47,572 bases of DNA from an uncultured Gammaproteobacteria bacterium (lineage in GTDB: Bacteria > Patescibacteriota > Patescibacteriia > Magasanikbacterales > UBA922), in NCBI GenBank assembly GCA_964531615.1, contig CAZHEJ010000001.1:1-47572 (forward strand), read 5' to 3'. Made by a program: the position numbers and the translations under genes. The notes beneath the pieces are model-generated. The model had not been told where the DNA came from and made no database searches. It saw only the letters and a list, made by a program, of their open reading frames with translations. Below, one piece after another: positions 11,408 to 40,412 of this stretch (the stretch's first letter is position 1; each line of letters begins with the position of its first letter).

Positions 11408-11412
11408 CAATT

Positions 11413-11474
11413 GTCATCCCCGCGTAGGCGGGGATCCAGTTTAAATAATAGATTCCCGCTTTCGCGGGAATGAC
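11413..11474 (+). repeat. Double-hairpin element, family A, intergenic copy abutting the EamA gene start
   Basis: gtcatccccgcgtaggcggggatcc...gattcccgctttcgcgggaatgac. The ORF ATG at 11470 is inside the terminal ggaATGac. Confidence 0.92.
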
Positions 11475-12378
11475 AAAATATATGCTTTGGGTATTTCTCG
11501 CCATTTCCGCGCATTTTTTCTGGGCAGTGGAAAATGTGGCGACAAAATATATTGTCGGCAAAAGGGTGTCTAACCCCTATGTGTTTTTGATTTTGCTTAC
11601 AGTGTTAAGTGGCGGAATAGGCATATTGATATTTCCTTTTGTAAACTTTTTTGTTCCTGAATGGAAAATACTGTTTTTATTGGCGCTCGCCGGCTTTCTT
11701 TATTTTTACGCCGGCCTGCCTTACATAAAGGCAATGCAGATTGAAGAAGTGAGCAGGATAAATATCTTATGGAATCTGGTGCCGATATTCAGCCTGTTCT
11801 TCGGTTATTTTATCGGCGACAGATTGTCAGCGCTTGAAATTTTAGCTTTGGTTTTTTTGGTCAGCGGCGGGGTGACAGCGTCAATCCACAGCCGGGAAAA
11901 GGGCTTTTCTTTTTCCAAGGCCTTTTGGCTGATGATGCTTTCTTGTTTGGTCTATTCTTTTGAAAGCGTCCTTTTCCGCTATGTTGCCTTGCGCATCCCG
12001 TTTGCCATTGCTTTTGTTTGGGTAGCCTTTTTTGAAGTTTTATCAGCTTTGAGCGCGTTATTTTTATCAAAGATTCGTTTTGATTTCAAAGAAGCAATCA
12101 AGAATTGCGGCTATTCTTTATTAGGCATAACTTTAGGAATCGCGGTGATTGCGAATTTGGGGATTTTTTTAAGCCAGTGGGCATTGTCTTTAAAACCCGC
12201 GGCATTAGTTTTTTCATTTGAAGGATTTCAGGTGGTTTTTGTTTTTATAATGGCAATATTTATTACACATTTTTATCCACGCATTTTAAAAGAAGAATTT
12301 GATTGGAAGAATATTGCTTTGAAATTAACGGCAATGGTGTTAATGATAGCGGGAGTAGTGGTGTTAACGTTCTCTTGA
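11470..12378 (+). CDS. EamA/DMT-family transporter
   Basis: About 10 TM helices with a two-fold EamA-like repeat. The ATG at 11470 lies inside a repeat element, and 11482 is an alternative start. Confidence 0.72.
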   Translation: MTKYMLWVFLAISAHFFWAVENVATKYIVGKRVSNPYVFLILLTVLSGGIGILIFPFVNFFVPEWKILFLLALAGFLYFYAGLPYIKAMQIEEVSRINILWNLVPIFSLFFGYFIGDRLSALEILALVFLVSGGVTASIHSREKGFSFSKAFWLMMLSCLVYSFESVLFRYVALRIPFAIAFVWVAFFEVLSALSALFLSKIRFDFKEAIKNCGYSLLGITLGIAVIANLGIFLSQWALSLKPAALVFSFEGFQVVFVFIMAIFITHFYPRILKEEFDWKNIALKLTAMVLMIAGVVVLTFS

Positions 12379-13312: not shown

Positions 13313-15056
13313 CTTTATTCAGCTCTTTAACCATATAAGTATTTTTCAACCAATAACCCAATTTTCGATAATACTCACGAACCCCCACGCCAGCAATTAC
13401 GGCGATTTTTGTATATTTATTCTTTTTGGCAATCTTCTCCGCTTCTTGCATTAATTTTTTCCCCAGCCCCTTATGTTGGCTGGCGTTTTTTTCATTTTTG
13501 CCAATATTAACCAATTTTCCGTAGGTGTGCAGTTCGCGGATGAAGGCACAATCGTGGAGTTGGGAGAGAAGAGTATAAACGCCATTGCGATTTCTAGATT
13601 CCCGCTTTCGCGGGAATGACAAACTGGGCAAGCGAAGGCGAAGAAAAGCAAACACAACTTCGCGTTTTTTGTCTTCAAATGAGAGAAAATACTCTCTCCC
13701 GTCGGTAGTTTGATATTTATCAACAAACAGTTTTGGTTTCCACCCCCTCTTAATCTCCCCCTTATTAAGGGGGAGAGAATGTCCAATCTCCCGGCAGCGC
13801 AGACACTGGCATTTCAACCCGCGTTTTTTCATTTCTTTTTTCAGCTCTTCCCGCAGGTTGGTGATTTTGTTGCCGGCAATAATATCGGTTTCAGGAATAT
13901 CGCGAATCAGGCGGGAAATCCTGCACCAGCGCGGAGTCGCGAGTTTCATTTTAATTATTGCCTCAAAAAGCTTTTTGTCTTCATATGGCCGGTATTTGCC
14001 TGACTTGTATAATTTGTACAGCGGAGAATTTTTTATTACTGTGCATGGATAAATTTTAACCATATCAGGCTTTAATCCCGGGTCAGAAAATAATTTTTTA
14101 TACATCTCCACGTCATGCTTCGGCGTTGAGCCGGGTAAATCAGGCATAAAATGCAAATCAATTTTAAATCCTGCCTGCCTTAATAATAACATTGCGTCTT
14201 TAAACTGTTGAACCGTATGTCCGCGACTGACTAATTTTAAAATTTTATCATCCGGCACTTGCAGTCCAAGCTCAATTCGCGTACAGCCCTGCTGGCGCAT
14301 GTGGTAAATTGTCTTTGGAGTGATGAAATCAGGGCGGGTTTCCAGAGTGAGGCCGATGATTCGGTGTTTGGCTTTTTCGTTTTTGCGTTGTTCTTTTTCT
14401 AATTCTTTTTGCAGTTTTTTGATTGTTTGGCGGCCAATATCCCCCCTGTACCCCCCTTTTTTAAGGGGGGAAATATTTGAAGTCGTCCCCCCCTTAGTAA
14501 AGGGGGGGGAGGAGGGTTGTTGGCGCAATTCATTACACGCTTGAAAAGAACGCAAAATAAACCAATACTGGTAGTTTAGTGGGTAGGCGTTCCAGGTTCC
14601 GCCTTTGACAATAAATTCAATTTTGTCAGTCGGGTGGCCGTTTTGCTCCAGCATTTCAATGCGCCTTCTCATCTGCTTGTAAGGGTCAAATTTTAGGCCC
14701 AAGGCGCGCGCTGCGGCTGGTTCGTTAGACAGATAACTTTTAGGCATTTTTGCTTCCTTTGGGCAATATATGCACTTTCCAGGGCATTTGTAGGGTTTTG
14801 TTAGCGAAGTTACAATTGCAATGCCGGAAAGGGTGCGGATTTGGGCTTTGCGCAGGAAATAAAGGATTTTTTCGTCTTTTTTTGCCCTTTTCTTTTTTAT
14901 CAGATTTTGATAAACTGAAAGCAGGTCATAATTCGGCGGCTGGGTCATTTTCATTTGCGCGCAGATTTTCTGCCGGGCATGGTCAAATTCGGCCTTGGTT
15001 TGGGGGCGTTTGGAAATGATTTCTAAAATTATTTTTTCCAGAATATCTATACTCAT
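13308..15056 (-). CDS. elp3: Elp3-like radical-SAM / GNAT acetyltransferase (tRNA U34 cm5-type modification enzyme)
   Basis: Radical-SAM cluster motif CPGKCIYCP and a C-terminal GNAT motif QHKGLGKKLMQEAEKIA. The ATG at 15056 is preferred over the TTG at 15071. Confidence 0.85.
   Translation of the reverse strand: MSIDILEKIILEIISKRPQTKAEFDHARQKICAQMKMTQPPNYDLLSVYQNLIKKKRAKKDEKILYFLRKAQIRTLSGIAIVTSLTKPYKCPGKCIYCPKEAKMPKSYLSNEPAAARALGLKFDPYKQMRRRIEMLEQNGHPTDKIEFIVKGGTWNAYPLNYQYWFILRSFQACNELRQQPSSPPFTKGGTTSNISPLKKGGYRGDIGRQTIKKLQKELEKEQRKNEKAKHRIIGLTLETRPDFITPKTIYHMRQQGCTRIELGLQVPDDKILKLVSRGHTVQQFKDAMLLLRQAGFKIDLHFMPDLPGSTPKHDVEMYKKLFSDPGLKPDMVKIYPCTVIKNSPLYKLYKSGKYRPYEDKKLFEAIIKMKLATPRWCRISRLIRDIPETDIIAGNKITNLREELKKEMKKRGLKCQCLRCREIGHSLPLNKGEIKRGWKPKLFVDKYQTTDGREYFLSFEDKKREVVFAFLRLRLPSLSFPRKRESRNRNGVYTLLSQLHDCAFIRELHTYGKLVNIGKNEKNASQHKGLGKKLMQEAEKIAKKNKYTKIAVIAGVGVREYYRKLGYWLKNTYMVKELNKE
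13597..13620 (-). repeat. Family A half-element in-frame in elp3 (SFPRKRESR)
   Basis: agattcccgctttcgcgggaatgac. Confidence 0.88.
13740..13777. repeat. Poly-C/poly-G palindrome in-frame in elp3 (LPLNKGEIKRGW)
   Basis: ccaccccctcttaa tctccccctta-t-taagggggaga. Confidence 0.88.
14441..14516. repeat. Tandem pair of poly-C/poly-G palindromes in-frame in elp3 (SSPPFTKGGTTSNISPLKKGGYRGD)
   Basis: cccccctgtaccccccttttttaagggggg ... cccccccttagtaaagggggggg. Confidence 0.9.
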
Positions 15057-16522: not shown

Positions 16523-16558
16523 CCCCGTGCAGTTGGAAACTGCCGGGGTTGTTTTTTT
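16523..16558 (+). terminator. Rho-independent terminator after the lipoprotein gene
   Basis: The ccccgtgcag-ttggaaa-ctgccgggg stem (one bulge) is followed by ttgttttttt. Confidence 0.75.
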
Positions 16559-17474
16559 ATCGGCCTGTGATTAAGCAAACAACAGCTCCGCCAGTCTTCG
16601 CTAAAGCTACGCCGGGCAAGTCAAATTTCCATCCATTTTCAACAGCTTTTTTGAGGCCGACTATTGAAAGCGCGCTGTTGGGGGAGATGAGAATATTGCA
16701 GGCATCTTCAACAAGTTTTATCGCGTCTTTAATTTCTTCGTCGTCTGCAATCCAGCCAGAACCATGGCTGTTTTTTATTATTTCCAAAACTTTTTCTTTG
16801 CGGTGGGCAATTTTGTCAACAATCGCATCTGCTATACTTTGATTTGTATCTTGTATCTCGTATCTCTTATCTCGTATTTCATCTGCAATCGGATGGCAGG
16901 CAGTTGTCTGCACAATGTGGATTTGCGGATTGATTTTGAGCTTTGCAAATGCCTCGCCAAGCCCTTGCGCGGTTGTTCCGGAAGAAGTTGGAATAAATAC
17001 TGCCTGCAGATTTGGTATTTTTGACAATTCATCCGCCAATTCAAAATATCCTTCCAAAGCCGTATCATCAGTTGACTGGCGCAGCATTTTTATTCCTTCT
17101 TTTTTATCCACCTGAAAAGCTTTTTGTTTTGGCTTGTCAACTTGCTCCAGTTTTATGTTTGCGTCATCAATAACCGCCAAAATTATTTTTAATTTTTCAG
17201 GATTTATATTTTTTCCAATGTAGACTGTGAGTTTTATAGCCTGCGGATTATTATAATTGTGCGCCCGCACAGCGTAAATGGCGGCCAGAGCAGCATTGCC
17301 TGAAGAAGATATTACAAAATTTGCATGCCCTTCTTTGGCATATTTTTTAATCATCAAGGGAATGGACCTGCCTTTATGCGAGCCGTATTTATGCTGGTCT
17401 TCGCGCTTTAAATATACTTCCGGCACGCCGAACGCCGCAGCCAGTTCAGGATACGATTGTTGGACAGTTTTCAT
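16557..17474 (-). CDS. PLP-dependent enzyme, tryptophan-synthase-beta fold (threonine-synthase-like)
   Basis: YLKREDQHKYGSHKGRS (PLP lysine region), SSGNAALA, IPTSSGTTAQG and a C-terminal LITGR. Confidence 0.7.
   Translation of the reverse strand: MKTVQQSYPELAAAFGVPEVYLKREDQHKYGSHKGRSIPLMIKKYAKEGHANFVISSSGNAALAAIYAVRAHNYNNPQAIKLTVYIGKNINPEKLKIILAVIDDANIKLEQVDKPKQKAFQVDKKEGIKMLRQSTDDTALEGYFELADELSKIPNLQAVFIPTSSGTTAQGLGEAFAKLKINPQIHIVQTTACHPIADEIRDKRYEIQDTNQSIADAIVDKIAHRKEKVLEIIKNSHGSGWIADDEEIKDAIKLVEDACNILISPNSALSIVGLKKAVENGWKFDLPGVALAKTGGAVVCLITGR
16844..16878 (-). repeat. Heptamer tandem repeat x5 in-frame in the PLP-enzyme gene (EIRDKRYEIQDTN)
   Basis: Plus strand reads ttgtatc ttgtatc tcgtatc tcttatc tcgtatt. 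Confidence 0.9.
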
Positions 17475-17513
17475 ACTTTATGTTATACTTATTTTAATCT
17501 TAATTTTAATCTT

Positions 17514-17678
17514 ATGCATCTAATTTGTCCGGAATGCAAAAATGATATTGATTTATCTTCTTATTCAAATATAGCTAAAGACCAGGTGATTGAATGCAAT
17601 GTTTGCGGGATTTCGCTTTTAGTCAATGATATTCAGGGGGATGAGGTAAGCGCAGAGGTTGTTGACGAGGGCAAATAA
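17514..17678 (+). CDS. Small zinc-ribbon protein, LysW-like layout
   Basis: 54 aa with CPEC...17 aa...CNVC followed by an acidic tail ending VVDEGK. Confidence 0.45.
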   Translation: MHLICPECKNDIDLSSYSNIAKDQVIECNVCGISLLVNDIQGDEVSAEVVDEGK

Positions 17679-17679
17679 T

Positions 17680-18228
17680 TTATTTGAATAGTTTTTTCTT
17701 GAATTGATTGAGTTTGCCTCTGCGGATCAATTTTAACACATCAAGAGTAAGATCTATCGAGCGGAAGTTATTGCCGGTAATAATTTTCATGAATTTATCA
17801 AATGGCACGGGCTTGAGTTGGATTCTTTCCCCGGAATCCAATTTTTGTTCGGCAACTTTTTTGCAATTTCTGGCAATAAAGCGGTGCATTGTCCATTCTA
17901 TTTTATTGAATGGTTCGCGAGTAAGCCACAGTTCCCAGTCGTCAGACGCCAGTCCTGTCTCTTCCAGAAGTTCGCGTTTGGCGCATTCCAGCGTGGTTTC
18001 ATTTTTATCCTGTCGCCCGCCGATTATTCCGTATTGCGGAGGCAGGGTCGGCTGTTCTTCATATATCAAAATAATTTTGCCGCCCATTATCGGCAGTACT
18101 TCTATGGTATTTGGCCTTTTCAGCATTTCAAAAGTTGCTTTTGTGCCATCAAACATTTTTTGTTGCCATTGGTAAACATCAAAGATTTTACCTTTGAAAA
18201 CCCGCTTGGCTTGTTTAGGTATTTTCAT
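17680..18228 (-). CDS. NUDIX hydrolase (ADP-ribose pyrophosphatase-like)
   Basis: Nudix box GGRQDKNETTLECAKRELLEETGL. Confidence 0.85.
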   Translation of the reverse strand: MKIPKQAKRVFKGKIFDVYQWQQKMFDGTKATFEMLKRPNTIEVLPIMGGKIILIYEEQPTLPPQYGIIGGRQDKNETTLECAKRELLEETGLASDDWELWLTREPFNKIEWTMHRFIARNCKKVAEQKLDSGERIQLKPVPFDKFMKIITGNNFRSIDLTLDVLKLIRRGKLNQFKKKLFK

Positions 18229-19657
18229 ATTTTTTTACTAATTCATCAATCATCCCGCGGAAGCCATGACTTCCTAAAAATACTATCACATCCCCGTCAG
18301 TGGTATTTTTTATTATGTAATTAATTAATTCTTCGTCGTTTTCAATATATTTAGCGTTTTTGTGCGTTTGGGAAATAATTTGCGTCAGTTTTTCGCCGTC
18401 AAAATGTCGCAGTTCATCAGAAGTTTTTAATTTTGTTAATTTAGGAATAATCACCTCGTCGGCTGCGGTAAAAGCATAATCATAGCTCGGTGTTGATTGT
18501 GGTTGGCGGTTGCCGGTGTTTGGCTCAAAGACAGCGATGATTTTTTTATTATAAATTTTGCGCAGAGTATTTAGAGTGAATTCAGCTTTTGTCGGCGAAT
18601 GCGCAATGTCGTCAAAAACAGTGATTTTACCCTCATAGCGTTTCTCAAGCCGTCTTTTTATTCCTTTAAAACTTTCAACTGCAGAAATAATTTTTTCCGG
18701 CGCAATGCCGATCTGATGCGCCATGGCAAAGACGCCCGTTATATTTTCAGCCATATAATCCCCGAGCACTGCAACACGTAGCACGTAACACGTATCACGG
18801 AACATAATTTTAAATTCTAAACCATTTTTATTCTGTTTTATATCAAAATATCTACACACACAGTTTTCAGTTTTTCCATAAGTGATAATATTTGATGTGG
18901 GATACGTGATATGTGATATGTGTTCATTTGCCACAATCAACCCATTTTCTGGAATAGATTTTATAAGCTTCTCAAACACTTCAAAATATGATTTTTCCGT
19001 CGGATAAACGTCCGCGTGGTCCCATTTTATAGCAGTCAAAAGCAGGTGGGTGGGGGAGTAGTGGGAGAATTTCGGCGAATTGTCCCAGCGCGCGGATTTA
19101 TACTCGTCGCCTTCAATTACGGAGTAATTGCCGCGTGATTCAGACGAAGTCTGAATTTTACGCGGCTCATTATTTTCCAAGCTCGCTGAATCAAAATCAT
19201 CAGTCGCCAATCCGCCGAACATATAGCTCGGATTATATCCGGCTTCAGTCAAAATCCAGCTTAAAAGCGCGGCAGTGGTGGTTTTGCCATAAGTGCCGGC
19301 GCAGACAATTGAATTTTGTTTGACAAAATATTCCGCAATTACTTCCGGATATGATTTGTAATTTAATTTATTTTTCTGCACATACTGCCATTCAGGATTT
19401 GTTGAACTGGCAACATTGCCAACAACGACTAAGTCCGGTGTATTGATTTTCTCTGGATGCCAGCCAGGATAAAAATCAATTTGATGTTTTTTTAAATAAT
19501 CAGAAACAGGCGGAAAAAATCCCGCGTCGCTTCCGGACACTTCAAAGCACGGCACGAGACTGCCGTCAGGCAGTTTTTCGTGTCCGGCTTTTTTAAAAGC
19601 AATTGCCAGCCCTCCCATTGCCACGCCGCAAATGCCGATAAAATGAATATGCTTCAT
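18215..19657 (-). CDS. mpl: Mur-ligase family, Mpl-type (UDP-MurNAc:tripeptide ligase)
   Basis: HFIGICGVAMGGLA, VSGSDAGFFPPV, AGTYGKTTT, IEGDEYKSARWDNSPKFSHY and DDIAHSPTK are collinear with Mpl rather than MurC. Confidence 0.82.
   Translation of the reverse strand: MKHIHFIGICGVAMGGLAIAFKKAGHEKLPDGSLVPCFEVSGSDAGFFPPVSDYLKKHQIDFYPGWHPEKINTPDLVVVGNVASSTNPEWQYVQKNKLNYKSYPEVIAEYFVKQNSIVCAGTYGKTTTAALLSWILTEAGYNPSYMFGGLATDDFDSASLENNEPRKIQTSSESRGNYSVIEGDEYKSARWDNSPKFSHYSPTHLLLTAIKWDHADVYPTEKSYFEVFEKLIKSIPENGLIVANEHISHITYPTSNIITYGKTENCVCRYFDIKQNKNGLEFKIMFRDTCYVLRVAVLGDYMAENITGVFAMAHQIGIAPEKIISAVESFKGIKRRLEKRYEGKITVFDDIAHSPTKAEFTLNTLRKIYNKKIIAVFEPNTGNRQPQSTPSYDYAFTAADEVIIPKLTKLKTSDELRHFDGEKLTQIISQTHKNAKYIENDEELINYIIKNTTDGDVIVFLGSHGFRGMIDELVKKYENT
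18773..18800 (-). repeat. Heptamer tandem repeat x4 in-frame in mpl (RDTCYVLRVAV)
   Basis: Plus strand reads aacacgt agcacgt aacacgt atcacgg. Confidence 0.88.
18894..18921 (-). repeat. Heptamer tandem repeat x4 in-frame in mpl; the coding-strand unit CACATAT is identical to leuS 2743-2777 (HISHITY)
   Basis: Plus strand reads gatgtgg gatacgt gatatgt gatatgt. Confidence 0.9.
19131..19165. repeat. 35-nt nested palindrome in-frame in mpl (EPRKIQTSSESRG)
   Basis: ccgcgt-g-attcagac-gaa-gtctgaat-ttt-acgcgg. Confidence 0.85.
19541..19576. repeat. 36-nt palindromic insert splitting the Mur-ligase N-terminal motif of mpl (GHE|KLPDGSLVPCFE|VSGSD)
   Basis: The core is actgcc-gtca-ggcagt. The flanking codons ggacac/gtgtcc extend the stem. 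Confidence 0.8.
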
Positions 19658-20397
19658 AAATTAATTATCAATTCATCAAATGCCGATATAGTATTTTTGA
19701 ATATTTTTTTTGCGTTACTTTCCGCTTTCAATCTCAATTTTTTATTTATGTAATAATCAGGGCCAAAGCCGGTTAGTATTAGTTTTTTTGTTTTTGCGAT
19801 TTTGGCTATTTTGGCTGCTGTTTGAGGAGAAGAGTGACCCCATTTCTCCTCCTTTGTTTGGGGAGGCATTGAACATTCATGTATCAGAAGATCTGATTTT
19901 TTACTTAATCTGATGGTATTTTTTGAAAAACCAGTATCTGCACAATAAGCAATTATTTTATTTTCTATTTCAAAGCGATATCCTAATGTTGGGACTATGT
20001 GGTTTAATTCGGCAATCTCAAAATAAAATGGAATATAGTTTTTATTTTTTGTAATTTCTAAAATTTTTAAACTTTTTAATCCAGTGCCTAAATAAGAGCT
20101 AAAAGGCGGAGAAATTATTTTTTGCAGATTTTTTTTATCACCTTTTCTGCAAAAAATAGTCAAATCTTGTTTGGGGTGAAAAGATGACATACCGTGCAGA
20201 CCGCATATATGATCAATATGCAAGTGGCTTAAAAAAATATAAATCGGCTTGTTTTTTTTTACATATTTTTTAGCACGATGCAACCCAAAACCAGCATCTA
20301 AAATTAGATAATAATCCTTACTCTCTATTAAAGTGCAGATTGTATTGCCAGCTATGGAATCAAACCAGTTATTTGTTCCTAAAAAAATTATTTTCAT
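19654..20397 (-). CDS. Metallo-beta-lactamase-fold hydrolase, short RNase Z/BN-like
   Basis: SHLHIDHICGL (HxHxDH) followed by CADTG, HEC and WGHSS motifs. Confidence 0.68.
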   Translation of the reverse strand: MKIIFLGTNNWFDSIAGNTICTLIESKDYYLILDAGFGLHRAKKYVKKNKPIYIFLSHLHIDHICGLHGMSSFHPKQDLTIFCRKGDKKNLQKIISPPFSSYLGTGLKSLKILEITKNKNYIPFYFEIAELNHIVPTLGYRFEIENKIIAYCADTGFSKNTIRLSKKSDLLIHECSMPPQTKEEKWGHSSPQTAAKIAKIAKTKKLILTGFGPDYYINKKLRLKAESNAKKIFKNTISAFDELIINL

Positions 20398-20400
20398 ATA

Positions 20401-21216
20401 TTATTTCAAAATTTTCTTTAAATCATTTAAATTTTGTTTCCATTCTTTCCCATCAAACCATCCCAATCCTTCAAACTGCAGTTTGTAAGTGTCATTCGGA
20501 CGCTGGGCAGAGCCCAAATAAACATAATGTTTTTTATGCTCTTGCGCGTATAAAATTGCTTTAAGCATCATGCCAAGGCCGAGATTGGGGATTAGCTTAT
20601 AGCTTGTAGCTTTTAGGTCGTAGAAGGGATAGGAATAGTGAAGGAGGGCATTGGTTTCGCGGCAGATGGCGTAGGCAATTTCATTCCGAGGCGAAGCCGA
20701 GGAATCTTTCGAAGAAAAAGTACTTGGGGATACATTAGTTTTTTGTAGTTCATCAGACATTGGCTTCGAAAGATCCTTCGTCCCCCGACGTAACGTCGGG
20801 GTCCTCAGGATGAACGAAAGAAGCAAATTAAAATTATGTTCAGTCGTCAATAACTCTTTCACTTTGTTAGCAGAAAAAGTCTCTTTGCCGAATTTAGTGT
20901 CATAAAAATCTTTGGCCATTTTGCCAATTGACCAATGGTAATTAGTCCCGCAGCGAGCGGGATCCCGCTGTGGCGGGATAACTGGTAACTCGTAACTAGT
21001 AACTAGTAAATTTTCAGTTTTTTTCAATATCCTTCTATTTTCACTGGACAATTTGAATTTTTTTAAGTCAACGCGCAAGCTTCTTGTCTGGTACATGTCT
21101 CCTTTGCCAGTGCGCGTGAACAAATAGCCCTCGTTGTAGAGGGAGTTGATGTTCGCGTCAGAAAAGTCAATGATGGTTTTTTTTGACCAAGTGAGATACA
21201 TATTAATATAATGCAA
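20401..21216 (-). CDS. Arginyl/leucyl-tRNA--protein transferase (ATE/Bpt)-like protein
   Basis: EGYLFTRTG..Y..RSLRVDLKKFKLSSENRRILKK and the C-terminal YVYLGSAQRPNDTYKLQFEGLGWFDGKEW parallel the Bpt/ATE N- and C-domain signatures. The alternative start at 21201 would remove the overlap with mraY. Confidence 0.6.
   Translation of the reverse strand: MHYINMYLTWSKKTIIDFSDANINSLYNEGYLFTRTGKGDMYQTRSLRVDLKKFKLSSENRRILKKTENLLVTSYELPVIPPQRDPARCGTNYHWSIGKMAKDFYDTKFGKETFSANKVKELLTTEHNFNLLLSFILRTPTLRRGTKDLSKPMSDELQKTNVSPSTFSSKDSSASPRNEIAYAICRETNALLHYSYPFYDLKATSYKLIPNLGLGMMLKAILYAQEHKKHYVYLGSAQRPNDTYKLQFEGLGWFDGKEWKQNLNDLKKILK
20592..20619 (-). repeat. Heptamer tandem repeat x4 in-frame in the ATE-like gene; the coding-strand unit AAGCTAN is shared with 4844-4878 (SYKL)
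   Basis: Plus strand reads ttagctt atagctt gtagctt ttaggtc. Confidence 0.88.
20683..20814 (+). repeat. 132-nt (44-codon) composite MITE-like element in-frame in the ATE-like gene; same architecture as 7009-7153
   Basis: The left arm is attccgaggcgaagccgaggaatctttcgaag. After the core come cttcgaaagatccttcgtcccccgacgtaacgtcggggtcctcaggat. Confidence 0.8.
20945..20979. repeat. Tandem double hairpin (family A-like variant) in-frame in the ATE-like gene (PPQRDPARCGT)
   Basis: gtcccgc-agcga-gcgggatcccgc-tgtg-gcgggat. Confidence 0.8.
20978..21012 (-). repeat. Heptamer tandem repeat x5 in-frame in the ATE-like gene (LLVTSYELPVI)
   Basis: Plus strand reads ataactg gtaactc gtaacta gtaacta gtaaatt. 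Confidence 0.9.
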
Positions 21217-22366
21217 TCCAAAGTCCTAATAATACCACTGTTGCATGCAGTATCCAGAATCGCATTACGGTTTTTTCTTCGCTCCATCCGCAAAGCTCAA
21301 AATGATGGTGCAGGGGCGCCATTTTGAAAATTCGCCTGCCCAAGCTGTATCTGCCGATAATTTGTATCACTACGGTTAACAATTCCACATAAAAAATAAA
21401 TCCCAAAAAAGGGAGCAGGAGCATTTTATTTATTACAATCGTGTTTATGGCAAGTAGCGAGCCGAGTCCGAGCGATCCGACATCGCCCATTTGGAATCTC
21501 GCTGGCTTGACATTGAAATAAGTGTAGGTGATGAGCGCGCCGACAGTAGTGGCGTTGAGCAGAGTGATATATGTATAGCCAGTAAGCCACGAGAGCAGAG
21601 TTAAAGCGGAAAAAGTGATTACCAGCGAACCGCCGGCAAGGCCGTCCATGCCGTCTGCCACATTTACCGCATTGGCAGTGAACATTACAAAAAAAATAAT
21701 CAGCGGAATAATCCACCAGCCGATATCTATGTTGCCGTTGAAGGGAATATAAATTTCTTTCCAATGTGCACCGAGTTTGAAGTAAATCCAGTAAGCTGCG
21801 ATGGCGCCGGCAACGAATTGCAAAAGCAATTTTTCATGCACGTGCACGCCCTTGCCCGGGTGAGAGCCGAGCCAAAGCGATGTGCGTTTGAAAATTGACC
21901 ACGGCAGAGTAAGAATCAGCCAGATTTTTTGCTTCCATTCCCTATGCACGCGGATTAAAGTCAAAATATGCTTTATTTTTCTGTTTCTTCTTTCATGCCC
22001 GTAAATATGCATTACATCATCAATACCGCCTAAAAGCGCAGACAAGAGCATTACACCGATTGGCACCCAAGTAAATTTTCTTTCCCAATTAAAAAGCATG
22101 GTAATTACAGCGACAGTCACAATAATCAAAAGCCCGCCCATAATCGGCGTGCCTGCTTTTTTTTCAACGTTCAGAGTTGAATCATAATCAGATCTGCGCG
22201 TAAGTTTGTATTTGTATAATATTTTTGTTAAAACAGGAGCCCATAAAAAAGCGGCCAGACAAGAAATTAGGCCGTAAAAAATAGAGGTTTTTAAAAGCTC
22301 CAATGATACATTGATTATTGCCATAGTAAGCTTATTTATGATAGCAGAAAAAGCTTTTATATTCAA
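21203..22366 (-). CDS. mraY: Phospho-N-acetylmuramoyl-pentapeptide transferase
   Basis: KKAGTPIMGG, NAVNVADGMDGLAGG, MGDVGSLGLG and APLHHHFELCGWSE. A possible internal start lies at 22324. Confidence 0.93.
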   Translation of the reverse strand: MNIKAFSAIINKLTMAIINVSLELLKTSIFYGLISCLAAFLWAPVLTKILYKYKLTRRSDYDSTLNVEKKAGTPIMGGLLIIVTVAVITMLFNWERKFTWVPIGVMLLSALLGGIDDVMHIYGHERRNRKIKHILTLIRVHREWKQKIWLILTLPWSIFKRTSLWLGSHPGKGVHVHEKLLLQFVAGAIAAYWIYFKLGAHWKEIYIPFNGNIDIGWWIIPLIIFFVMFTANAVNVADGMDGLAGGSLVITFSALTLLSWLTGYTYITLLNATTVGALITYTYFNVKPARFQMGDVGSLGLGSLLAINTIVINKMLLLPFLGFIFYVELLTVVIQIIGRYSLGRRIFKMAPLHHHFELCGWSEEKTVMRFWILHATVVLLGLWIALY

Positions 22367-22407: not shown

Positions 22408-23745
22408 ATGGCAGAACCTCAATATAAAAAGGCGTATGTTGTCACTGTTGACATGGGTTACGGCCATCAGCGGGCGGCTTATCCGCTCAAAGATATTGCC
22501 GAGAGAGGAATAATAAATGCCAACCGCTATGCGGGCATTCCCAAGTCAGATGTAAGATTGTGGGAGGGGAGCCGAAAGCTTTATGAAAGGATTTCCCGCT
22601 TGAAAAGTCTTCCGCTTATCGGCGAGTGGATTTTTAGGTTAATGGATTATTTCCAGCGCATTGAAAGATTTTATCCTATCCGCAATTTGCATAAACCAAG
22701 CTGTCAATTAAGGCAAGTCTACAGGATGATAAGAAAAGGCTGGGGAAAGGATTTGGTGGAAAAATTGAACCGTAAGCCACTGCCTCTGATTAGCACATTT
22801 TTTGCAACATCATATTTTGCCGAGGAACACGGCTATAAAGGGCCTATTTATCTATTGGTTTGTGATGCCGACTGCTCAAGAGTCTGGGCGCCATTGGAGC
22901 CGGAAAAGACCAAAATTAAATATTTAGTGCCAAACCGCCGGGTGCAGGAGCGCCTGCAGGAGTATGGCGTTAAAGCGGATAATATTTTTATCACCGGCTT
23001 TCCCCTGCCAAAGGAAAACATCGGCGGCAGGGATTTGAAAATTCTTAAAATTAGCCTGGCGCACCGAATTGCGCATCTTGACCCGGAAAACCGCTATCAG
23101 AAAAAATATGAAAAGACGCTTAAGGAATTTTTGGGGAATGCTTATAATCCGCGCAAGGAAGCCGGGCACCCGCTCACAATAACCTTTGCCGTCGGCGGAG
23201 CCGGAGCCCAGCGCGAGATAGGCGCCACTATATTGAACAGCCTGCACGGCCATATCGGCAACGGCCAAATCTGCCTGAATCTGGTAGCCGGAGTCAGGAA
23301 TGACGTGTATCTTTATTATCAGGATGAAATCAATAAATTGGGGCTAATGAAAGAAAAGAACGGCCATATCAATATTTTGTATGCGGACAATAAAACAGAA
23401 TATTTTGAAAAATTCAATAAATTGCTTTTAGATACTGATATATTATGGACCAAGCCGAGCGAACTGTCTTTTTACGCGGGTTTGGGCCTGCCGATTATTA
23501 TGGCGCCGACGGTCGGTTCGCAGGAAGAATTCAACAAATCATGGCTTACTGCCATAGGAGCCGGCGTTGTCCAAGAGGATCCGCATTATACGCACCAGTG
23601 GCTTTTTGACTGGCTGCAATCCGGCTGGCTGGCCGAGGCGGCAATGAATGGATTTTTAAATGCCCCGCGCAATGGCGTTTATCATATTGAAGAGGTTGTC
23701 CTGCGCGGCAAAAGAAGTGAAATAGAAGATATACACCTTTTGTAA
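22408..23745 (+). CDS. GT-B glycosyltransferase, GT28 MGDG-synthase/UgtP-like
   Basis: N-terminal DMGYGHQRAA, FAVGGAGAQ and ILWTKPSELSFYAGLGLPIIMAPTVGSQEEFN resemble the UgtP/MGDG-synthase C-terminal motif. Confidence 0.62.
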   Translation: MAEPQYKKAYVVTVDMGYGHQRAAYPLKDIAERGIINANRYAGIPKSDVRLWEGSRKLYERISRLKSLPLIGEWIFRLMDYFQRIERFYPIRNLHKPSCQLRQVYRMIRKGWGKDLVEKLNRKPLPLISTFFATSYFAEEHGYKGPIYLLVCDADCSRVWAPLEPEKTKIKYLVPNRRVQERLQEYGVKADNIFITGFPLPKENIGGRDLKILKISLAHRIAHLDPENRYQKKYEKTLKEFLGNAYNPRKEAGHPLTITFAVGGAGAQREIGATILNSLHGHIGNGQICLNLVAGVRNDVYLYYQDEINKLGLMKEKNGHINILYADNKTEYFEKFNKLLLDTDILWTKPSELSFYAGLGLPIIMAPTVGSQEEFNKSWLTAIGAGVVQEDPHYTHQWLFDWLQSGWLAEAAMNGFLNAPRNGVYHIEEVVLRGKRSEIEDIHLL

Positions 23746-39463: not shown

Positions 39464-40033
39464 ATGAGTCCAGAATTTGCGCAAACACTTGAATTACCTG
39501 TTCCAGAGAAGAAAGAGCCAAGCGCAAAAGGCCGGAAATCCCGAGATACAATTGTGATTCCTGCCTTTGAGGAGATGGGGAAAGAATCCACTCATGGGAA
39601 AGTAATCAGTATATATAGCCGGAAGGAGAAAGAGTTGCCTTTAAATATTGAAAAATTAACCTCACGCATGAAAGAGGGTATTTTTAAGGAAGAGACAAGT
39701 AAAGCAGAGGTGGAACAGATTGCGGAGTTTTTAATATGTAAAACACCAGAAGAAATAGCTGAGTTGATTTGGGAAGGCAAGTTGCATCATACGGTTTTTT
39801 TACAAGTCAAAGAAATGTGCGGTAAAAAGGAGAAAAATATCTTAGAAGAAAAGTCCCTCGCGGTTTTAATGTTGATGGCAGAAAAGATGAGGGGGATTAG
39901 AAAGGGTTTGAAGCAGATATTAGGGGGGGATGAAAACGTAGCGATTGAAGACTTAATTAGGAAAACTTTTGGTTTGGGTTTAGGAGAGCAAGGAAAAGAA
40001 GAGCAGCCGAAAGCTGCGTCAGGAGAATTTTAA
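39464..40033 (+). CDS. Hypothetical protein embedded in the heat-shock cluster
   Basis: 189-aa ORF with tight spacing to neighbours and no recognised motif. Confidence 0.5.
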   Translation: MSPEFAQTLELPVPEKKEPSAKGRKSRDTIVIPAFEEMGKESTHGKVISIYSRKEKELPLNIEKLTSRMKEGIFKEETSKAEVEQIAEFLICKTPEEIAELIWEGKLHHTVFLQVKEMCGKKEKNILEEKSLAVLMLMAEKMRGIRKGLKQILGGDENVAIEDLIRKTFGLGLGEQGKEEQPKAASGEF

Positions 40034-40044
40034 TTTATAAATAT

Positions 40045-40398
40045 ATGTCAGAGGAATTTGTTCCGGCAATGAATATTTATGACACCAAAGACGCGGTCGT
40101 GGCCGAGACACCGCTGGCCGGCGTTGACCCAAAAGATGTTGAGGTCAATGTGGAAAGGGGCGTTTTAACGGTCAAAGGCGCGACTAAAAAAGAGCATGAG
40201 GTTGATGAAAAGAATTATTACCGCAAAGAAGTGCGCTCCGGCTCTTTCTTCCGCCAGGTGGCCTTGCCTGTCGCTGTCAAAGAAGACGCGGTCAAAGCAG
40301 AGTTTGAGGATGGCATTTTAAAAATCACCTGCCCCAAAGTCGCGCCAGCAGTGACGAAAAAAATAAGCATTAAAGTGATGAAGAAAGAGAAGAAGTAA
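40045..40398 (+). CDS. Small heat-shock protein (Hsp20/alpha-crystallin)
   Basis: Alpha-crystallin domain: ...GSFFRQVALPVAVKEDAVKAEFEDGILKITCPK. Confidence 0.88.
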   Translation: MSEEFVPAMNIYDTKDAVVAETPLAGVDPKDVEVNVERGVLTVKGATKKEHEVDEKNYYRKEVRSGSFFRQVALPVAVKEDAVKAEFEDGILKITCPKVAPAVTKKISIKVMKKEKK

Positions 40399-40412
40399 TT
40401 AAGTTAAATTTT

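What the first reader, a model, noticed from the sequence alone, without database searches (positions are those of the whole stretch)
17680..22366. Translationally coupled mraY / ATE(Bpt)-like / MBL (RNase Z-like) / mpl / NUDIX operon: a possible aminoacyl-tRNA-dependent step in cell-wall precursor synthesis
Seen: five minus-strand genes are packed with overlaps or tiny gaps.
- The mraY stop at 21203 and the ATE-like start at 21216 overlap (14 nt). With the 21201 start there is no overlap.
- The ATE-like stop at 20401 and the MBL start at 20397 leave a 3-nt gap.
- The MBL stop at 19654 and the mpl start at 19657 overlap (4 nt).
- The mpl stop at 18215 and the NUDIX start at 18228 overlap (14 nt).

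The second gene shows the hallmarks of arginyl/leucyl-tRNA--protein transferases: ...RSLRVDLKKFKLSSENRRILKK... and ...YVYLGSAQRPNDTYKLQFEGLGWFDGKEW.

Established:
- ATE1/Bpt/Aat enzymes and the FemABX/MurM peptidoglycan branch transferases share a GNAT-like fold.
- All of them use aminoacyl-tRNA as the donor.
- MraY and Mpl act on UDP-MurNAc-peptide.

Inference: embedded between mraY and mpl, the ATE-like protein may transfer an amino acid from aa-tRNA to a muropeptide or lipid-linked precursor (a Fem-like role) rather than act in an N-degron pathway. The MBL and NUDIX partners could process tRNA or nucleotide-linked by-products. This gene combination is not a described system as far as I know.
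Basis: inference. Interest (0 to 1): 0.72.

Follow-up and report, generated by a model that had tools for sequence, protein, structure and literature searches.

The report
tRNA-dependent transferase beside cell-wall peptide ligase
A tiny uncultured (CPR) bacterium keeps a distant relative of the enzymes that move amino acids from tRNA onto proteins right next to a cell-wall peptide ligase, and relatives in two bacterial classes do the same, which points to an undescribed tRNA-dependent step in cell-wall building.

Summary
The five tightly packed minus-strand genes are real. The 271-aa protein is a remote, cysteine-less relative of ATE1/Bpt. Its sequence scores fall below curated cutoffs, but insert-free relatives pass the ATE_C cutoff, and a confident AlphaFold model matches only aminoacyl-tRNA transferases (ATE1, FemX, MprF, L/F-transferase). 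The catalytic Tyr-Lys pair is invariant.

Synteny supports the cell-wall link:
- In Magasanikbacteria, MraY is upstream in 75/75 loci and an Mpl-type ligase is downstream in 70/72.
- In Microgenomates (about 31-35% identity), the gene sits inside the dcw/mur cluster between an N-terminally truncated MurE and the same Mpl-type ligase.
- A cytoplasmic NlpC/P60-like gene, a LysW-like Zn-ribbon and a PALP gene accompany it in both classes, in a different order.

The ligase is Mpl-type, not MurC-type: it shares the Mpl-specific loop.

The MBL gene is not part of the system. It was found in 0/80 relatives and sits in a hypervariable cargo slot. NUDIX is present in about a third of relatives.

More distant homologs are not near mur genes (Cytophagales) or sit in ATP-grasp/alanine-racemase operons.

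The acceptor is unresolved. It could be a Fem-like side-chain branch, or an N-terminal addition to a free peptide that the Mpl-type ligase then attaches. I found no publication on this. Whole-genome murC/murD presence could not be checked.

The parts
21203..22366 (-). mraY (phospho-MurNAc-pentapeptide transferase). First gene of the co-directional block. The ORF starts at TTG 22366; the true start may be the ATG 42 nt downstream.
   Evidence: Pfam Glycos_transf_4 4.5e-26; TIGR00445 mraY 187.7 bits against cutoff 192. 30% identical to E. coli MraY over 376 aa. PLHHHFE and DD motifs are in the translation. It lies immediately upstream of the ATE-like gene in 75/75 evaluable Magasanikbacteria loci.
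20401..21201 (-). ATE/Bpt-like aminoacyl-tRNA transferase homolog: 266 aa from the conserved ATG at 21201 (the mechanical ORF runs to TTG 21216). It lacks the cysteines of the ATE_N metal site.
   Evidence: Start from alignment A1. NCBIfam arginyltransferase models E 3.7e-7 to 5e-4, below cutoffs. ATE_C 17-18 bits here but 28.6-30.1 bits (cutoff 25) in insert-free relatives. AF2 model pLDDT 82, pTM 0.80. Foldseek PDB top hits are all aa-tRNA transferases: ATE1 8tzv E 1.6e-7 TMq 0.53, FemX 1ne9, MprF/aaPGS, L/F-transferase.
20482..20487 (-). Codons for Tyr244-Lys245 (ORF numbering) in the TYKLQF motif. Proposed equivalent of the catalytic Tyr303-Lys304 of K. lactis Ate1 and Phe304-Lys305 of FemX.
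   Evidence: The Y-K pair is invariant in alignments A1, A2 and A3. The role of the pair in Ate1/FemX is from PMC9351520. The equivalence is inferred from motif position (M-x-YK-x-x-F region of ATE_C), not from a residue-level superposition.
20950..20982 (-). Lineage-specific in-frame insert 1 (VIPPQRDPARC), encoded by GC-rich hairpin DNA.
   Evidence: Absent from all 31 other sequences in A1. The DNA reads ATCCCGCcacaGCGGGAT / CCCGCtcgctGCGGG.
20683..20811 (-). Variable-length region (about aa 136-178) containing hairpin-type inserts. Low-confidence loop in the model.
   Evidence: Length-variable in A1, where many homologs have nothing here. pLDDT below 50 at residues 143-147 and 155-173. Hairpin CCCCGACGttaCGTCGGGG.
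19654..20397 (-). MBL-fold hydrolase (weakly RNase Z/PhnP-like). A lineage-specific cargo gene in a hypervariable slot, not a conserved component.
   Evidence: Lactamase_B_2 2.7e-17; RNase Z models about 108 bits against cutoffs of 252-293. No homolog within +/-10 kb in 80/80 related loci. 33 loci carry other inserts at this junction, forming 25 unrelated clusters.
18215..19657 (-). Mpl-type Mur ligase (UDP-MurNAc:peptide ligase clade). The conserved partner of the ATE-like gene.
   Evidence: E. coli Mpl 204 bits against MurC 98.6. Best PDB matches are the Mpl structures 3hn7 and 3eag. It shares the 8-residue loop after DEY (SARWDNSPK, compare (S/T)AFFDKRSK), absent in MurC, plus the VYPP-S, EP and GGF-type motifs. 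The mpl and murC HMMs score about equally and below cutoffs (251.8/245.4). Downstream of ATE-like in 70/72 Magasanikbacteria and 16/19 Microgenomates-type loci.
17680..18228 (-). NUDIX hydrolase, last gene of the block. Facultative neighbour.
   Evidence: NUDIX 5.1e-10; NudE model 36.9 bits against cutoff 169. An ortholog follows the ligase in 28 of the 80 Magasanikbacteria loci.
17517..17678 (+). LysW-like zinc-ribbon mini-protein with an acidic C-terminal tail (the mechanical ORF starts at 17457). Conserved neighbour, convergent with the block.
   Evidence: Zn_ribbon_LysW E 1e-5, 25.5 bits against cutoff 27. Present beside the module in Magasanikbacteria (64 loci) and in Microgenomates L173.
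16557..17474 (-). PLP-dependent (fold type II, threonine-synthase-like) enzyme. Conserved neighbour of unknown role.
   Evidence: PALP 1e-37; threonine synthase models far below cutoffs; PDB 2zsj 1.3e-9. Conserved next to the Zn-ribbon in both CPR classes.

Best explanation
The 266-aa protein is an active aminoacyl-tRNA-dependent transferase of a previously undescribed, cysteine-less branch of the ATE1/Bpt lineage. In CPR bacteria it works on the peptidoglycan stem peptide together with the adjacent Mpl-type ligase.

The specific mechanism I favour is a 'peptide-first' route:
1. An ATP-dependent amide ligase builds or extends a gamma-D-Glu-diamino-acid peptide that is not attached to UDP-MurNAc. 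This ligase would be the MurE paralog lacking its UDP-binding domain in Microgenomates, or the ATP-grasp enzyme in Magasanikbacteria. Alternatively a salvaged muropeptide is trimmed by the cytoplasmic NlpC/P60-like enzyme.
2. The ATE-like enzyme transfers an L-amino acid (most simply L-Ala) from aa-tRNA onto the free alpha-amino group of the N-terminal acidic residue (D-Glu). This is the same acceptor logic as ATE1/Bpt, which act on N-terminal Asp/Glu.
3. The Mpl-type ligase joins the finished peptide to UDP-MurNAc.
4. MraY then makes lipid I.

Shown: the fold and superfamily; conservation of the catalytic Tyr-Lys; Mpl-type identity of the ligase; conserved and rearranged co-localisation with mur genes in two CPR classes.

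Inferred: tRNA dependence; any peptidoglycan substrate; the acceptor; the donor amino acid; the order of steps.

The MBL gene is a passenger. NUDIX is optional.
For: Enzyme class:
- Foldseek hits are exclusively aa-tRNA transferases, with ATE1 best, on a confident model.
- Bpt-type HMMs hit weakly but repeatedly.
- Relatives pass the ATE_C cutoff.
- The Y-K pair and the basic SSENRR-x-x-KK helix are invariant.

PG link:
- MraY upstream in 75/75 and Mpl-type ligase downstream in 70/72 Magasanikbacteria loci, median gap 7 nt where directly adjacent.
- In Microgenomates-type loci (31-35% identity; HHalign probability 100%) the order is mraZ-rsmH-ftsL-ftsI-murE(dN)-ATE-like-mpl-like-murB-murA-ddl-murF(dN)-mraY-P60-like-ZnR-PALP.
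- The same gene set therefore recurs in a different order.

Peptide-first specifically:
- The ligase carries the Mpl-specific loop and motifs.
- The upstream coupled ligase is a MurE lacking about 70-100 N-terminal residues. In L174 it coexists with a full-length MurE.
- A cytoplasmic NlpC/P60-type protein (invariant DCSGF, no signal peptide) is conserved in both classes, and there is an Amidase_3 in L094.
- No region in 161 loci best-matches MurC or MurD, although the Microgenomates cluster otherwise holds MurA, MurB, Ddl, MurE, MurF and MraY.
- ATE1/Bpt acceptors are N-terminal acidic residues (PMC9351520).
- In non-CPR 'group C' the homolog is coupled to alanine racemase and an ATP-grasp ligase (35/40 loci). 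That again points to small D-amino-acid peptides as substrates.
Against: - There is no biochemical evidence at all.
- murC and murD may simply lie elsewhere with ftsW and murG, which are also missing from the clusters. Only +/-8-10 kb could be inspected, so their genome-wide absence is untested.
- The ligase scores as well on the murC HMM as on the mpl HMM. Its Mpl signature is diverged (SARWDNSPK; Microgenomates lack the Tyr). E. coli Mpl can accept L-Ala when overexpressed. It may therefore be these organisms' MurC.
- MurF is also N-terminally truncated in Microgenomates, so domain loss may be a lineage habit rather than a sign of free-peptide substrates.
- All 80 Magasanikbacteria loci share a block of about 10 collinear genes that includes genes with no PG role (methyltransferase, radical SAM). 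Within that class, synteny is partly inheritance.
- The Arg80-type acidic-acceptor pocket of ATE1 could not be mapped, and the ATE_N metal site is absent.
- Cytophagales homologs have no mur neighbours.
- Three Microgenomates-type loci lack the downstream ligase (L110, L111, L113).
Confidence: 0.35

Rival explanations
1. Fem-like branch transferase. The enzyme transfers an amino acid from aa-tRNA to the side-chain amino group of the position-3 diamino acid of UDP-MurNAc-tri/pentapeptide or lipid I/II, creating a branched stem or interpeptide bridge. The neighbouring ligase acts as the organism's MurC.
For: - The only known role of aa-tRNA transferases in PG synthesis is branch addition. FemX of Weissella acts on the soluble UDP-MurNAc-pentapeptide (PMC9351520).
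- FemX is among the top structural matches (E 7.8e-6).
- The gene sits directly after murE, the enzyme that installs the diamino acid, in Microgenomates, and after mraY in Magasanikbacteria.
- murC HMM scores equal the mpl scores.
- Mpl can use L-Ala.
Against: - By sequence and structure the protein is closer to ATE1/Bpt, which acylate N-terminal alpha-amines, than to FemX (TMq 0.53 against 0.40). No FemAB Pfam hit even at E up to 1.
- It does not explain the conserved Mpl-type character of the ligase, the cytoplasmic NlpC/P60-like partner, or the extra truncated MurE paralog in L174.
- Fem genes are not characteristically linked to mpl (own knowledge).
Confidence: 0.3
2. tRNA-dependent aminoacylation of another small molecule or lipid, not the stem peptide itself. 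Examples: a carrier-protein-bound or D-amino-acid-containing metabolite made with the PALP, LysW-like and ATP-grasp genes, or a membrane lipid as in MprF/aaPGS.
For: - MprF/aaPGS domains are strong structural matches (E about 3e-5).
- Non-CPR homologs sit in ATP-grasp/alanine-racemase operons (35/40 loci) or next to dTDP-sugar and methyltransferase genes, without mur genes.
- The PALP plus LysW-like Zn-ribbon pair is conserved beside the module in both CPR classes.
Against: - In CPR the tightest and most conserved partners are Mur-family ligases, often within 10 nt.
- No membrane domain is present.
- Placement in Microgenomates is between two cytoplasmic Mur ligases.
Confidence: 0.15
3. Ordinary N-degron transferase (Bpt-like). 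It adds Leu/Arg to N-terminal Asp/Glu of proteins for Clp-dependent degradation, and its position among mur genes is inherited gene order without functional meaning.
For: - The closest named families are Bpt/arginyltransferase.
- JGI and UniRef call members arginyl- or leucyl-tRNA-protein transferase or 'N-end rule aminoacyl transferase'.
- Magasanikbacteria loci are collinear over about 10 genes, including unrelated ones.
Against: - Scores are far below every equivalog cutoff (30 against 170 or more). There is no ATE_N hit and the four metal-binding cysteines are lost.
- The linkage survives transfer to another CPR class with a different gene order.
- No Clp/ClpS/Aat gene appears in any of about 165 neighbourhoods examined by Pfam or BLAST.
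Confidence: 0.1
4. The five genes form one dedicated system in which the MBL (RNase Z-like) and NUDIX enzymes process tRNA or nucleotide by-products of the transferase.
For: In this window, all five genes are co-directional with gaps of 3 nt or less or with overlaps.
Against: - The MBL gene is absent from 80/80 related loci.
- The same slot holds methyltransferases, RimK-like ATP-grasp enzymes, GNATs, a SPOUT methyltransferase, a flavin reductase, NUDIX, pentapeptide-repeat and unknown proteins in other genomes, forming 25 unrelated clusters.
- NUDIX is present in only about a third of loci.
- Such tight packing is the norm in this genome.
Confidence: 0.03

Closest known systems
ATE1 (eukaryotic arginyl-tRNA-protein transferase) and bacterial Bpt (leucyl-tRNA-protein transferase), Pfam ATE_N + ATE_C
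   Same: - Best structural match (human ATE1 8tzv E 1.6e-7; yeast and K. lactis Ate1).
- ATE_C detected; relatives pass the cutoff.
- Bpt-type NCBIfam models hit both the C-terminal GNAT part and the R-x-R...F-x-x-S-S-E-N-R-R part of ATE_N.
- The catalytic Tyr-Lys is conserved.
   Different: - About 215 aa core, against about 240 (Bpt) or about 500 (ATE1).
- No Pfam ATE_N hit, and all four metal-binding cysteines are lost.
- Scores are far below equivalog cutoffs.
- A profile search of the PDB by sequence finds no ATE1.
- The genomic context is mur/dcw genes rather than proteolysis genes.
FemX/FemABX/MurM peptidoglycan branch transferases (Pfam FemAB)
   Same: Same superfamily fold and the same kind of donor. 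FemX is a top structural hit. Both are linked to PG precursor synthesis. FemX of Weissella uses a soluble UDP-MurNAc-pentapeptide.
   Different: - No FemAB HMM hit, and lower TM-score (0.40).
- Half the size (FemX is 335 aa with two GNAT lobes and, in FemA, a coiled coil).
- Fem genes are not known to be paired with an Mpl-type ligase (own knowledge).
Mpl-dependent murein peptide recycling of Gram-negative bacteria (Mpl, with peptidases such as LdcA; in Bacillus the cytoplasmic NlpC/P60 peptidase YkfC)
   Same: An Mpl-clade ligase (shared loop and motifs) sits next to a cytoplasmic NlpC/P60-type protein and, in one locus, an Amidase_3. These are the enzyme types that handle free stem peptides.
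   Different: - Here the ligase is embedded in the biosynthetic dcw/mur cluster of monoderm-like CPR bacteria.
- It is paired with an aa-tRNA transferase homolog.
- It may be the only MurC/Mpl-family ligase (untested).
- No tRNA-dependent step is known in recycling.
- The comparison with YkfC/LdcA is from my own knowledge, not tested.
Leucyl/phenylalanyl-tRNA-protein transferase (Aat) and aminoacyl-phosphatidylglycerol synthases (MprF C-terminal domain, DUF2156)
   Same: Same fold class. Significant Foldseek matches (2dpt/2cxa E 2.4e-4; 4v35, 9j8s, 6lv0 E about 3e-5).
   Different: No sequence-level similarity detected. No membrane domain. Different acceptors (protein N-terminal Arg/Lys; lipid head group).
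tRNA-dependent transferases of natural-product pathways (e.g. PacB, DhpH/DhpK, VlmA) - from my own knowledge, not tested here
   Same: They add an amino acid from aa-tRNA to the amino group of a small, often non-proteinogenic, molecule. This is comparable to what the group-C operon (ATP-grasp, alanine racemase, ATE-like) suggests.
   Different: Those enzymes are of the Fem type, not the ATE/Bpt type. No biosynthetic-cluster hallmarks are seen here.

Membership tests
ATE1/Bpt aminoacyl-tRNA-protein transferases | ATE_C (GNAT-type) domain above Pfam gathering score | tested here: inconclusive
   Window protein: 17.1 bits, or 18.0 with inserts removed, against cutoff 25. Close and distant relatives without inserts: 28.6-30.1 bits. 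42/45 second-tier members hit ATE_C.
ATE1/Bpt aminoacyl-tRNA-protein transferases | ATE_N domain with four conserved metal-binding cysteines (klAte1 Cys23/26/95/96) | tested here: not met
   No ATE_N hit at E up to 1. No invariant or near-invariant Cys in A1, A2 or A3. Only the R-x-R...SSENRR segment aligns to Bpt models (NF002344, residues 40-72). The Cys roles are from PMC9351520.
ATE1/Bpt aminoacyl-tRNA-protein transferases | NCBIfam arginyltransferase equivalog score above cutoff | tested here: not met
   Best score 29.8 bits against cutoffs of 170-267.
ATE1/Bpt aminoacyl-tRNA-protein transferases | Catalytic Tyr-Lys (klAte1 Y303-K304) | tested here: met
   The Y-K of TYKLQF is invariant across all three alignments. 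The equivalence is by motif position only.
ATE1/Bpt aminoacyl-tRNA-protein transferases | Basic pocket (klAte1 Arg80) recognising an acidic N-terminal acceptor; activity on N-terminal Asp/Glu proteins | not testable with these tools
   Identity is about 10%, and no residue-level superposition was available. Several invariant Arg residues exist (R35, R45, R48, R62) but could not be assigned.
Aminoacyl-tRNA transferase (GNAT-like) fold superfamily | Fold match to solved aa-tRNA transferases | tested here: met
   The 50 listed top Foldseek PDB hits (of 60 at E <= 1e-3) are all ATE1, FemX, MprF/aaPGS or L/F-transferase, probability 1.00, TMq up to 0.56, from a model with pLDDT 82 and pTM 0.80.
FemABX/MurM | FemAB Pfam domain; two-lobed protein of about 330-430 aa | tested here: not met
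   No FemAB hit at E up to 1. Core of about 215 aa. TMq to FemX 0.40 with rmsd about 11 A.
Mpl (UDP-MurNAc:L-Ala-gamma-D-Glu-mDAP ligase) | Mpl-specific loop (S/T)AFFDKRSK after Tyr182, absent from MurC-F | tested here: met
   A loop of the same length is present in all five CPR ligases and E. coli Mpl, and absent in E. coli MurC. The sequence is diverged: DEY-K-SARWDNSPK in the window; Microgenomates lack the Tyr. Motif definition from PMC3060825.
Mpl (UDP-MurNAc:L-Ala-gamma-D-Glu-mDAP ligase) | TIGR01081 equivalog score above cutoff and clearly above murC | tested here: not met
   mpl 251.8 (cutoff 388.7) against murC 245.4 (cutoff 335.1). However, BLASTP gives E. coli Mpl 204 against MurC 98.6 bits, and the PDB Mpl structures rank first.
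Mpl (UDP-MurNAc:L-Ala-gamma-D-Glu-mDAP ligase) | Ligates preformed peptides rather than L-Ala; coexists with a separate MurC | not testable with these tools
   Needs an enzyme assay and whole genomes. No MurC-type region was found within +/-8-10 kb in 161 loci.
MraY | TIGR00445 equivalog score; conserved DD and HHH motifs | tested here: inconclusive
   187.7 bits against cutoff 192.05, split in two stretches by an insertion. GGIDDV, NAVNVADGMDGLA and APLHHHFE are present in the translation. I regard it as MraY.
RNase Z | Equivalog HMM above cutoff; protein of about 300 aa with flexible arm | tested here: not met
   Best 108 bits against cutoffs of 252-293. 247 aa, matched in two separate stretches. 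Generic MBL-fold hydrolase.

The most novel reading that the evidence does not exclude
In Magasanikbacteria and Microgenomates the peptidoglycan stem peptide is assembled, or rebuilt from scavenged host muropeptides, off the nucleotide sugar. The L-Ala-D-Glu bond is made by a tRNA-dependent ATE/Bpt-type transferase acting on an N-terminal D-Glu. An Mpl-type ligase then attaches the finished peptide to UDP-MurNAc. This would be a route that bypasses MurC and MurD, enzymes regarded as universal in peptidoglycan-containing bacteria.
Probability: 0.25. Interest if true: 0.9.

Novelty: new variant of a known kind. Interest (0 to 1): 0.7.

Why it matters
Aminoacyl-tRNA-dependent steps in cell-wall synthesis are known only from Fem/MurM enzymes of Firmicutes and relatives, where they add side branches. 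Here a different lineage of the same superfamily, the one otherwise devoted to marking proteins for degradation, is embedded in the core cell-wall gene cluster of two large classes of uncultured, host-dependent bacteria. It is always beside a ligase of the peptide-recycling (Mpl) type.

If the protein acts on the stem peptide, this is a second, independent recruitment of tRNA-dependent chemistry into peptidoglycan synthesis. If the peptide-first reading is right, it changes the textbook MurC-MurD-MurE-MurF order for a substantial part of bacterial diversity. It would also tie wall synthesis in CPR bacteria to peptide scavenging from their hosts.

The proteins are small, soluble and easy to express, so the question is directly testable. 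The work also gives a practical correction: the MBL and NUDIX genes should not be treated as part of the system.

Tried and rejected
- Sequence-profile search of the family against PDB chains found nothing meaningful: best E 0.06, an unrelated HAD phosphatase. Only the fold comparison worked.
- Promoter and terminator scans over 16.4-23.0 kb were at chance level and were not used.
- The idea that the MBL is a tRNA-processing partner was rejected on conservation.
- The first metagenome scan, with a 12-sequence alignment, failed for lack of a conserved stretch. It was repeated with 6 closer sequences.
- Contexts of two intermediate-tier proteins came from short contigs. P0165 was uninformative; P0176/L090 was informative only after translating the cut flanking ORFs.
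- I tested whether the Magasanikbacteria ATP-grasp and the group-C PurD-like ATP-grasp are the same family. There is no detectable BLAST similarity, so 'ATP-grasp + ATE-like' is not one conserved module.
- A profile of the P60-like protein against the PDB matched Spr/MepS only at the catalytic-Cys motif (E about 0.5). The assignment rests on the DCSGF motif and weak Pfam hits.
- Mapping the ATE1 acidic-acceptor residue Arg80 and the donor pocket onto the family was abandoned at about 10% identity.
- Seven literature searches found no description of this family, of ATE-like genes in dcw clusters, or of Mur gene content in Magasanikbacteria.
- My first intergenic-distance script gave wrong values because HSPs were merged. 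It was redone. One outlier (-1416 nt) remains in that output and was ignored.

Full report
**1. Observation**

The window is from a CPR bacterium. The closest relatives of its proteins are labelled Candidatus Magasanikbacteria. Reading the DNA confirms each junction:
- mraY TAA at 21205-21203.
- ATE-like TAA at 20403-20401, followed after 3 nt by the MBL ATG at 20397.
- An ATGA overlap between the MBL gene and the ligase.
- A 14-nt overlap between the ligase and NUDIX.

An alignment of 32 homologs places the real start of the ATE-like gene at the ATG at 21201 (conserved M-Y-L-x-W), 1 nt after the mraY stop. The packing is real but not distinctive, because roughly half of all same-strand junctions in this window are equally tight. 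Promoter and terminator scans gave chance-level counts.

**2. Identity of the genes**

- MraY is essentially canonical: TIGR00445 187.7 bits against a cutoff of 192, 30% identical to E. coli MraY, HHH and DD motifs present.
- The MBL protein is a generic MBL-fold hydrolase. RNase Z models reach about 108 bits against cutoffs of 252-293.
- The NUDIX protein has no specific assignment.
- The Mur ligase scores equally on the mpl and murC HMMs, below both cutoffs. Every other test puts it with Mpl:
  - The two solved Mpl structures rank above all MurC structures.
  - E. coli Mpl scores 204 bits against 98.6 for E. coli MurC.
  - It shares an 8-residue loop after DE(Y) that the Mpl structure paper describes as Mpl-specific, (S/T)AFFDKRSK preceded by Tyr182. 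E. coli MurC lacks this loop.
  - It also shares the VYPP-S, EP and GGF-type motifs.
  - The signature is diverged (SARWDNSPK), so function as a peptide ligase is inferred, not shown.

**3. The ATE-like protein**

Sequence evidence is weak for this particular copy. Six Bpt-type NCBIfam models score at most 30 bits. Relatives without inserts pass the ATE_C cutoff at 28.6-30.1 bits. There is no ATE_N, Leu_Phe_trans or FemAB hit at E up to 1.

The window copy carries two lineage-specific inserts encoded by GC-rich hairpin DNA.

An AlphaFold2 model built on the alignment is confident outside the inserts (pLDDT 82, pTM 0.80). The 50 top Foldseek matches listed from the PDB (of 60 at E <= 1e-3) are all aminoacyl-tRNA transferases. 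Human, yeast and K. lactis ATE1 come first (E 1.6e-7, TMq 0.53-0.56), followed by FemX, MprF/aaPGS and L/F-transferase.

The Tyr-Lys pair, which is catalytic in Ate1 (Y303-K304) and FemX (F304-K305) according to PMC9351520, corresponds by motif position to the Y-K of TYKLQF. That pair is invariant in all my alignments. The four cysteines of the ATE_N metal site are absent. The protein is therefore a member of the superfamily and of the ATE/Bpt lineage in a broad sense, but not of the ATE1/Bpt family as defined by its models.

**4. Size and structure of the family**

- The close family has 1,625 clusters at 90% identity. It occurs in 360 GTDB species, essentially all Magasanikbacteria.
- An exhaustive profile search finds 431 clusters at 50% identity with E <= 1e-3, with a second tier at 85-185 bits.
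- That tier splits into three groups:
  - a Microgenomates-type clade, 31-35% identical to the window protein;
  - a high-GC, non-CPR group C from soil and peat;
  - a Bacteroidota group annotated 'GNAT family N-acetyltransferase'.
- Profile-profile comparison confirms homology: probability 100%, E about 1e-57.

**5. Gene neighbourhoods (the key test)**

Magasanikbacteria (80 species loci):
- MraY is immediately upstream in 75/75 evaluable loci.
- The Mpl-type ligase is downstream in 70/72. It is directly adjacent in 39, with a median gap of 7 nt.
- These loci are collinear over about 10 genes, including a methyltransferase and an ELP3-like radical-SAM gene. On their own they prove little.

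Microgenomates-type clade:
- The gene lies in a compact dcw/mur cluster: mraZ-rsmH-ftsL-ftsI-murE-ATE-like-mpl-type-murB-murA-ddl-murF-mraY-P60-like-Zn-ribbon(-)-PALP.
- A MurE-type gene is upstream in 23/24 loci. The Mpl-type ligase is adjacent in 16/19, with a median gap of 9 nt.

The set {MraY, MurB, ATE-like, Mpl-type ligase, NlpC/P60-like, LysW-like Zn-ribbon, PALP} therefore recurs in two CPR classes with a different order and different immediate upstream partner. That argues for selection on proximity rather than inheritance.

Limits:
- Three loci of this clade lack the ligase downstream (L110, L111, L113).
- In group C the gene is instead coupled to alanine racemase (35/40 loci) and a PurD-like ATP-grasp enzyme.
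- In Cytophagales its neighbours are DinB, a methyltransferase and dTDP-sugar genes.
- The cell-wall linkage is thus a property of the CPR clades, not of the whole family.

**6. What is not part of it**

No homolog of the window's MBL gene occurs within 10 kb in any of the 80 related loci. The junction between the ATE-like and ligase genes is a hypervariable slot. 33 genomes carry one or two same-strand genes there, falling into 25 unrelated clusters. They include:
- methyltransferases
- RimK-like ATP-grasp enzymes
- GNATs
- a SPOUT methyltransferase
- a flavin reductase
- NUDIX
- pentapeptide-repeat proteins
- many proteins with no family match

The NUDIX gene after the ligase is present in about a third of Magasanikbacteria loci. 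The window's genome has lost the upstream murB/ATP-grasp/P60-like block from this position.

**7. Mechanism**

Two readings fit a stem-peptide role.

(a) Fem-like. The enzyme branches the side-chain amine of residue 3. This has precedent, and FemX is a structural match.

(b) Peptide-first. The enzyme acylates the alpha-amine of an N-terminal acidic residue, as ATE1 and Bpt do. In a stem peptide that residue can only be D-Glu of gamma-D-Glu-X. The product L-Ala-gamma-D-Glu-X is exactly what an Mpl-type ligase attaches to UDP-MurNAc.

Reading (b) accounts for more of the conserved neighbours:
- The Mpl-type ligase itself.
- A cytoplasmic NlpC/P60-type protein with invariant DCSGF and no signal peptide.
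- An Amidase_3 in L094.
- A MurE lacking its UDP-binding N-terminal domain, which coexists with a full-length MurE in L174.
- The absence of murC and murD from a cluster that otherwise holds murA, murB, ddl, murE, murF and mraY.

Against (b):
- ftsW and murG are also missing from these clusters, so a murD-ftsW-murG-murC block may simply lie elsewhere.
- MurF is truncated too.
- The ligase may act as MurC, since E. coli Mpl accepts L-Ala when overexpressed.

I put (b) at about 0.35 and (a) at about 0.30. The common claim, a tRNA-dependent step on the peptidoglycan stem peptide, is at about 0.65-0.7. An N-degron role is unlikely (about 0.1). No part of the mechanism has experimental support.

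**8. Novelty**

Seven full-text searches found no description of this family, of ATE-like genes in dcw clusters, or of an Mpl-coupled tRNA-dependent step. Databases label members 'hypothetical', 'arginyl-tRNA-protein transferase' or 'N-end rule aminoacyl transferase' by similarity. I rate it a new variant of a known kind: the known kind is tRNA-dependent transferases in wall synthesis, and the variant is a different enzyme lineage with a different partner. There is a substantial chance of something more unusual.

The decisive tests are a whole-genome census for murC and murD, and simple in vitro assays.

Noticed in passing
window 19654-20397, and the equivalent junction in L010-L085: The junction between the ATE-like and Mpl-type genes is a hypervariable cargo slot in Magasanikbacteria. 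33 species carry 1-2 same-strand genes there, in 25 unrelated clusters (methyltransferases, RimK-like ATP-grasp, GNAT, SPOUT, flavin reductase, NUDIX, pentapeptide repeat, many unknown). Why an otherwise fixed operon tolerates or attracts insertions at exactly this point is unexplained.
   Followed up: partly
window 2551-2623, 3087-3157, 11409-11477, 13595-13623, 13741-13776, 14438-14516, 20683-20811, 20950-20982: Short GC-rich palindromic (hairpin) repeats occur between genes and also in frame inside coding genes: LeuRS, the ELP3-like radical-SAM gene and the ATE-like gene. Examples are GATTCCCGCTTTCGCGGGAATGACA, TGTCATCCCCGCGAAGGCGGGGATC and CCCCCCTTATTAAGGGGGG. They add peptide loops such as SFPRKRESR or VIPPQRDPARC, which resembles Rickettsia palindromic elements. 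The Mpl-type ligase also has 12- and 13-aa lineage-specific inserts.
   Followed up: partly
window 16557-17678; L173 18376-19547: A LysW-like zinc-ribbon mini-protein with an acidic C-terminal tail (..AEVVDEGK) and a divergently oriented PLP-dependent threonine-synthase-like enzyme form a pair. The pair is conserved beside the mur module in both Magasanikbacteria and Microgenomates. An amino-group-carrier-type pathway feeding the cell wall is conceivable but untested.
   Followed up: partly
L094 6150-7382 and 13540-14751; L173 8792-10000 and 15375-16586; L174 6436-7923 and 8739-10004: Microgenomates MurE and MurF lack the N-terminal (UDP-binding) domain. They align to E. coli MurE from about residue 84-102 and to MurF from residue 93. 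One genome (L174) has a full-length MurE as well as the truncated paralog that is coupled to the ATE-like gene.
   Followed up: partly
L115-L170 (e.g. L129 5491-8804): In a non-CPR, high-GC group of soil and peat bacteria, the homolog is the last gene of a three-gene unit: PurD-like ATP-grasp ligase, alanine racemase, ATE-like. There is a 4-nt overlap in L129, and alanine racemase is upstream in 35/40 loci. This suggests synthesis of a small D-Ala-containing peptide.
   Followed up: partly
window 5-3088: The leucyl-tRNA synthetase (1027 aa) carries an inserted alpha/beta-hydrolase domain at about residues 463-615 (Abhydrolase_1 E 1e-12), after the editing domain.
   Followed up: no
window 39464-41252: A 189-aa ORF with no family match and a BRO-N domain ORF (a domain typical of phage and virus proteins) sit between grpE and dnaK, inside the hrcA-grpE-dnaK-dnaJ heat-shock operon.
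   Followed up: no
window 22408-23745: Divergently transcribed from mraY is a 445-aa protein with DUF6938 and weak MGDG-synthase / diglucosyl-diacylglycerol-synthase similarity (GT28-like, the family that includes MurG). In most relatives this position is occupied by the P60-like, ATP-grasp and murB block instead.
   Followed up: no
L003 2456-3673 and the equivalent gene in 49 Magasanikbacteria loci: A 405-aa ATP-grasp protein (only ATP-grasp_3 1.9e-8 and a weak biotin-carboxylase hit; not a recognisable Ddl) is conserved between murB and the P60-like gene in Magasanikbacteria. It is unrelated by BLAST to the group-C ATP-grasp.
   Followed up: partly
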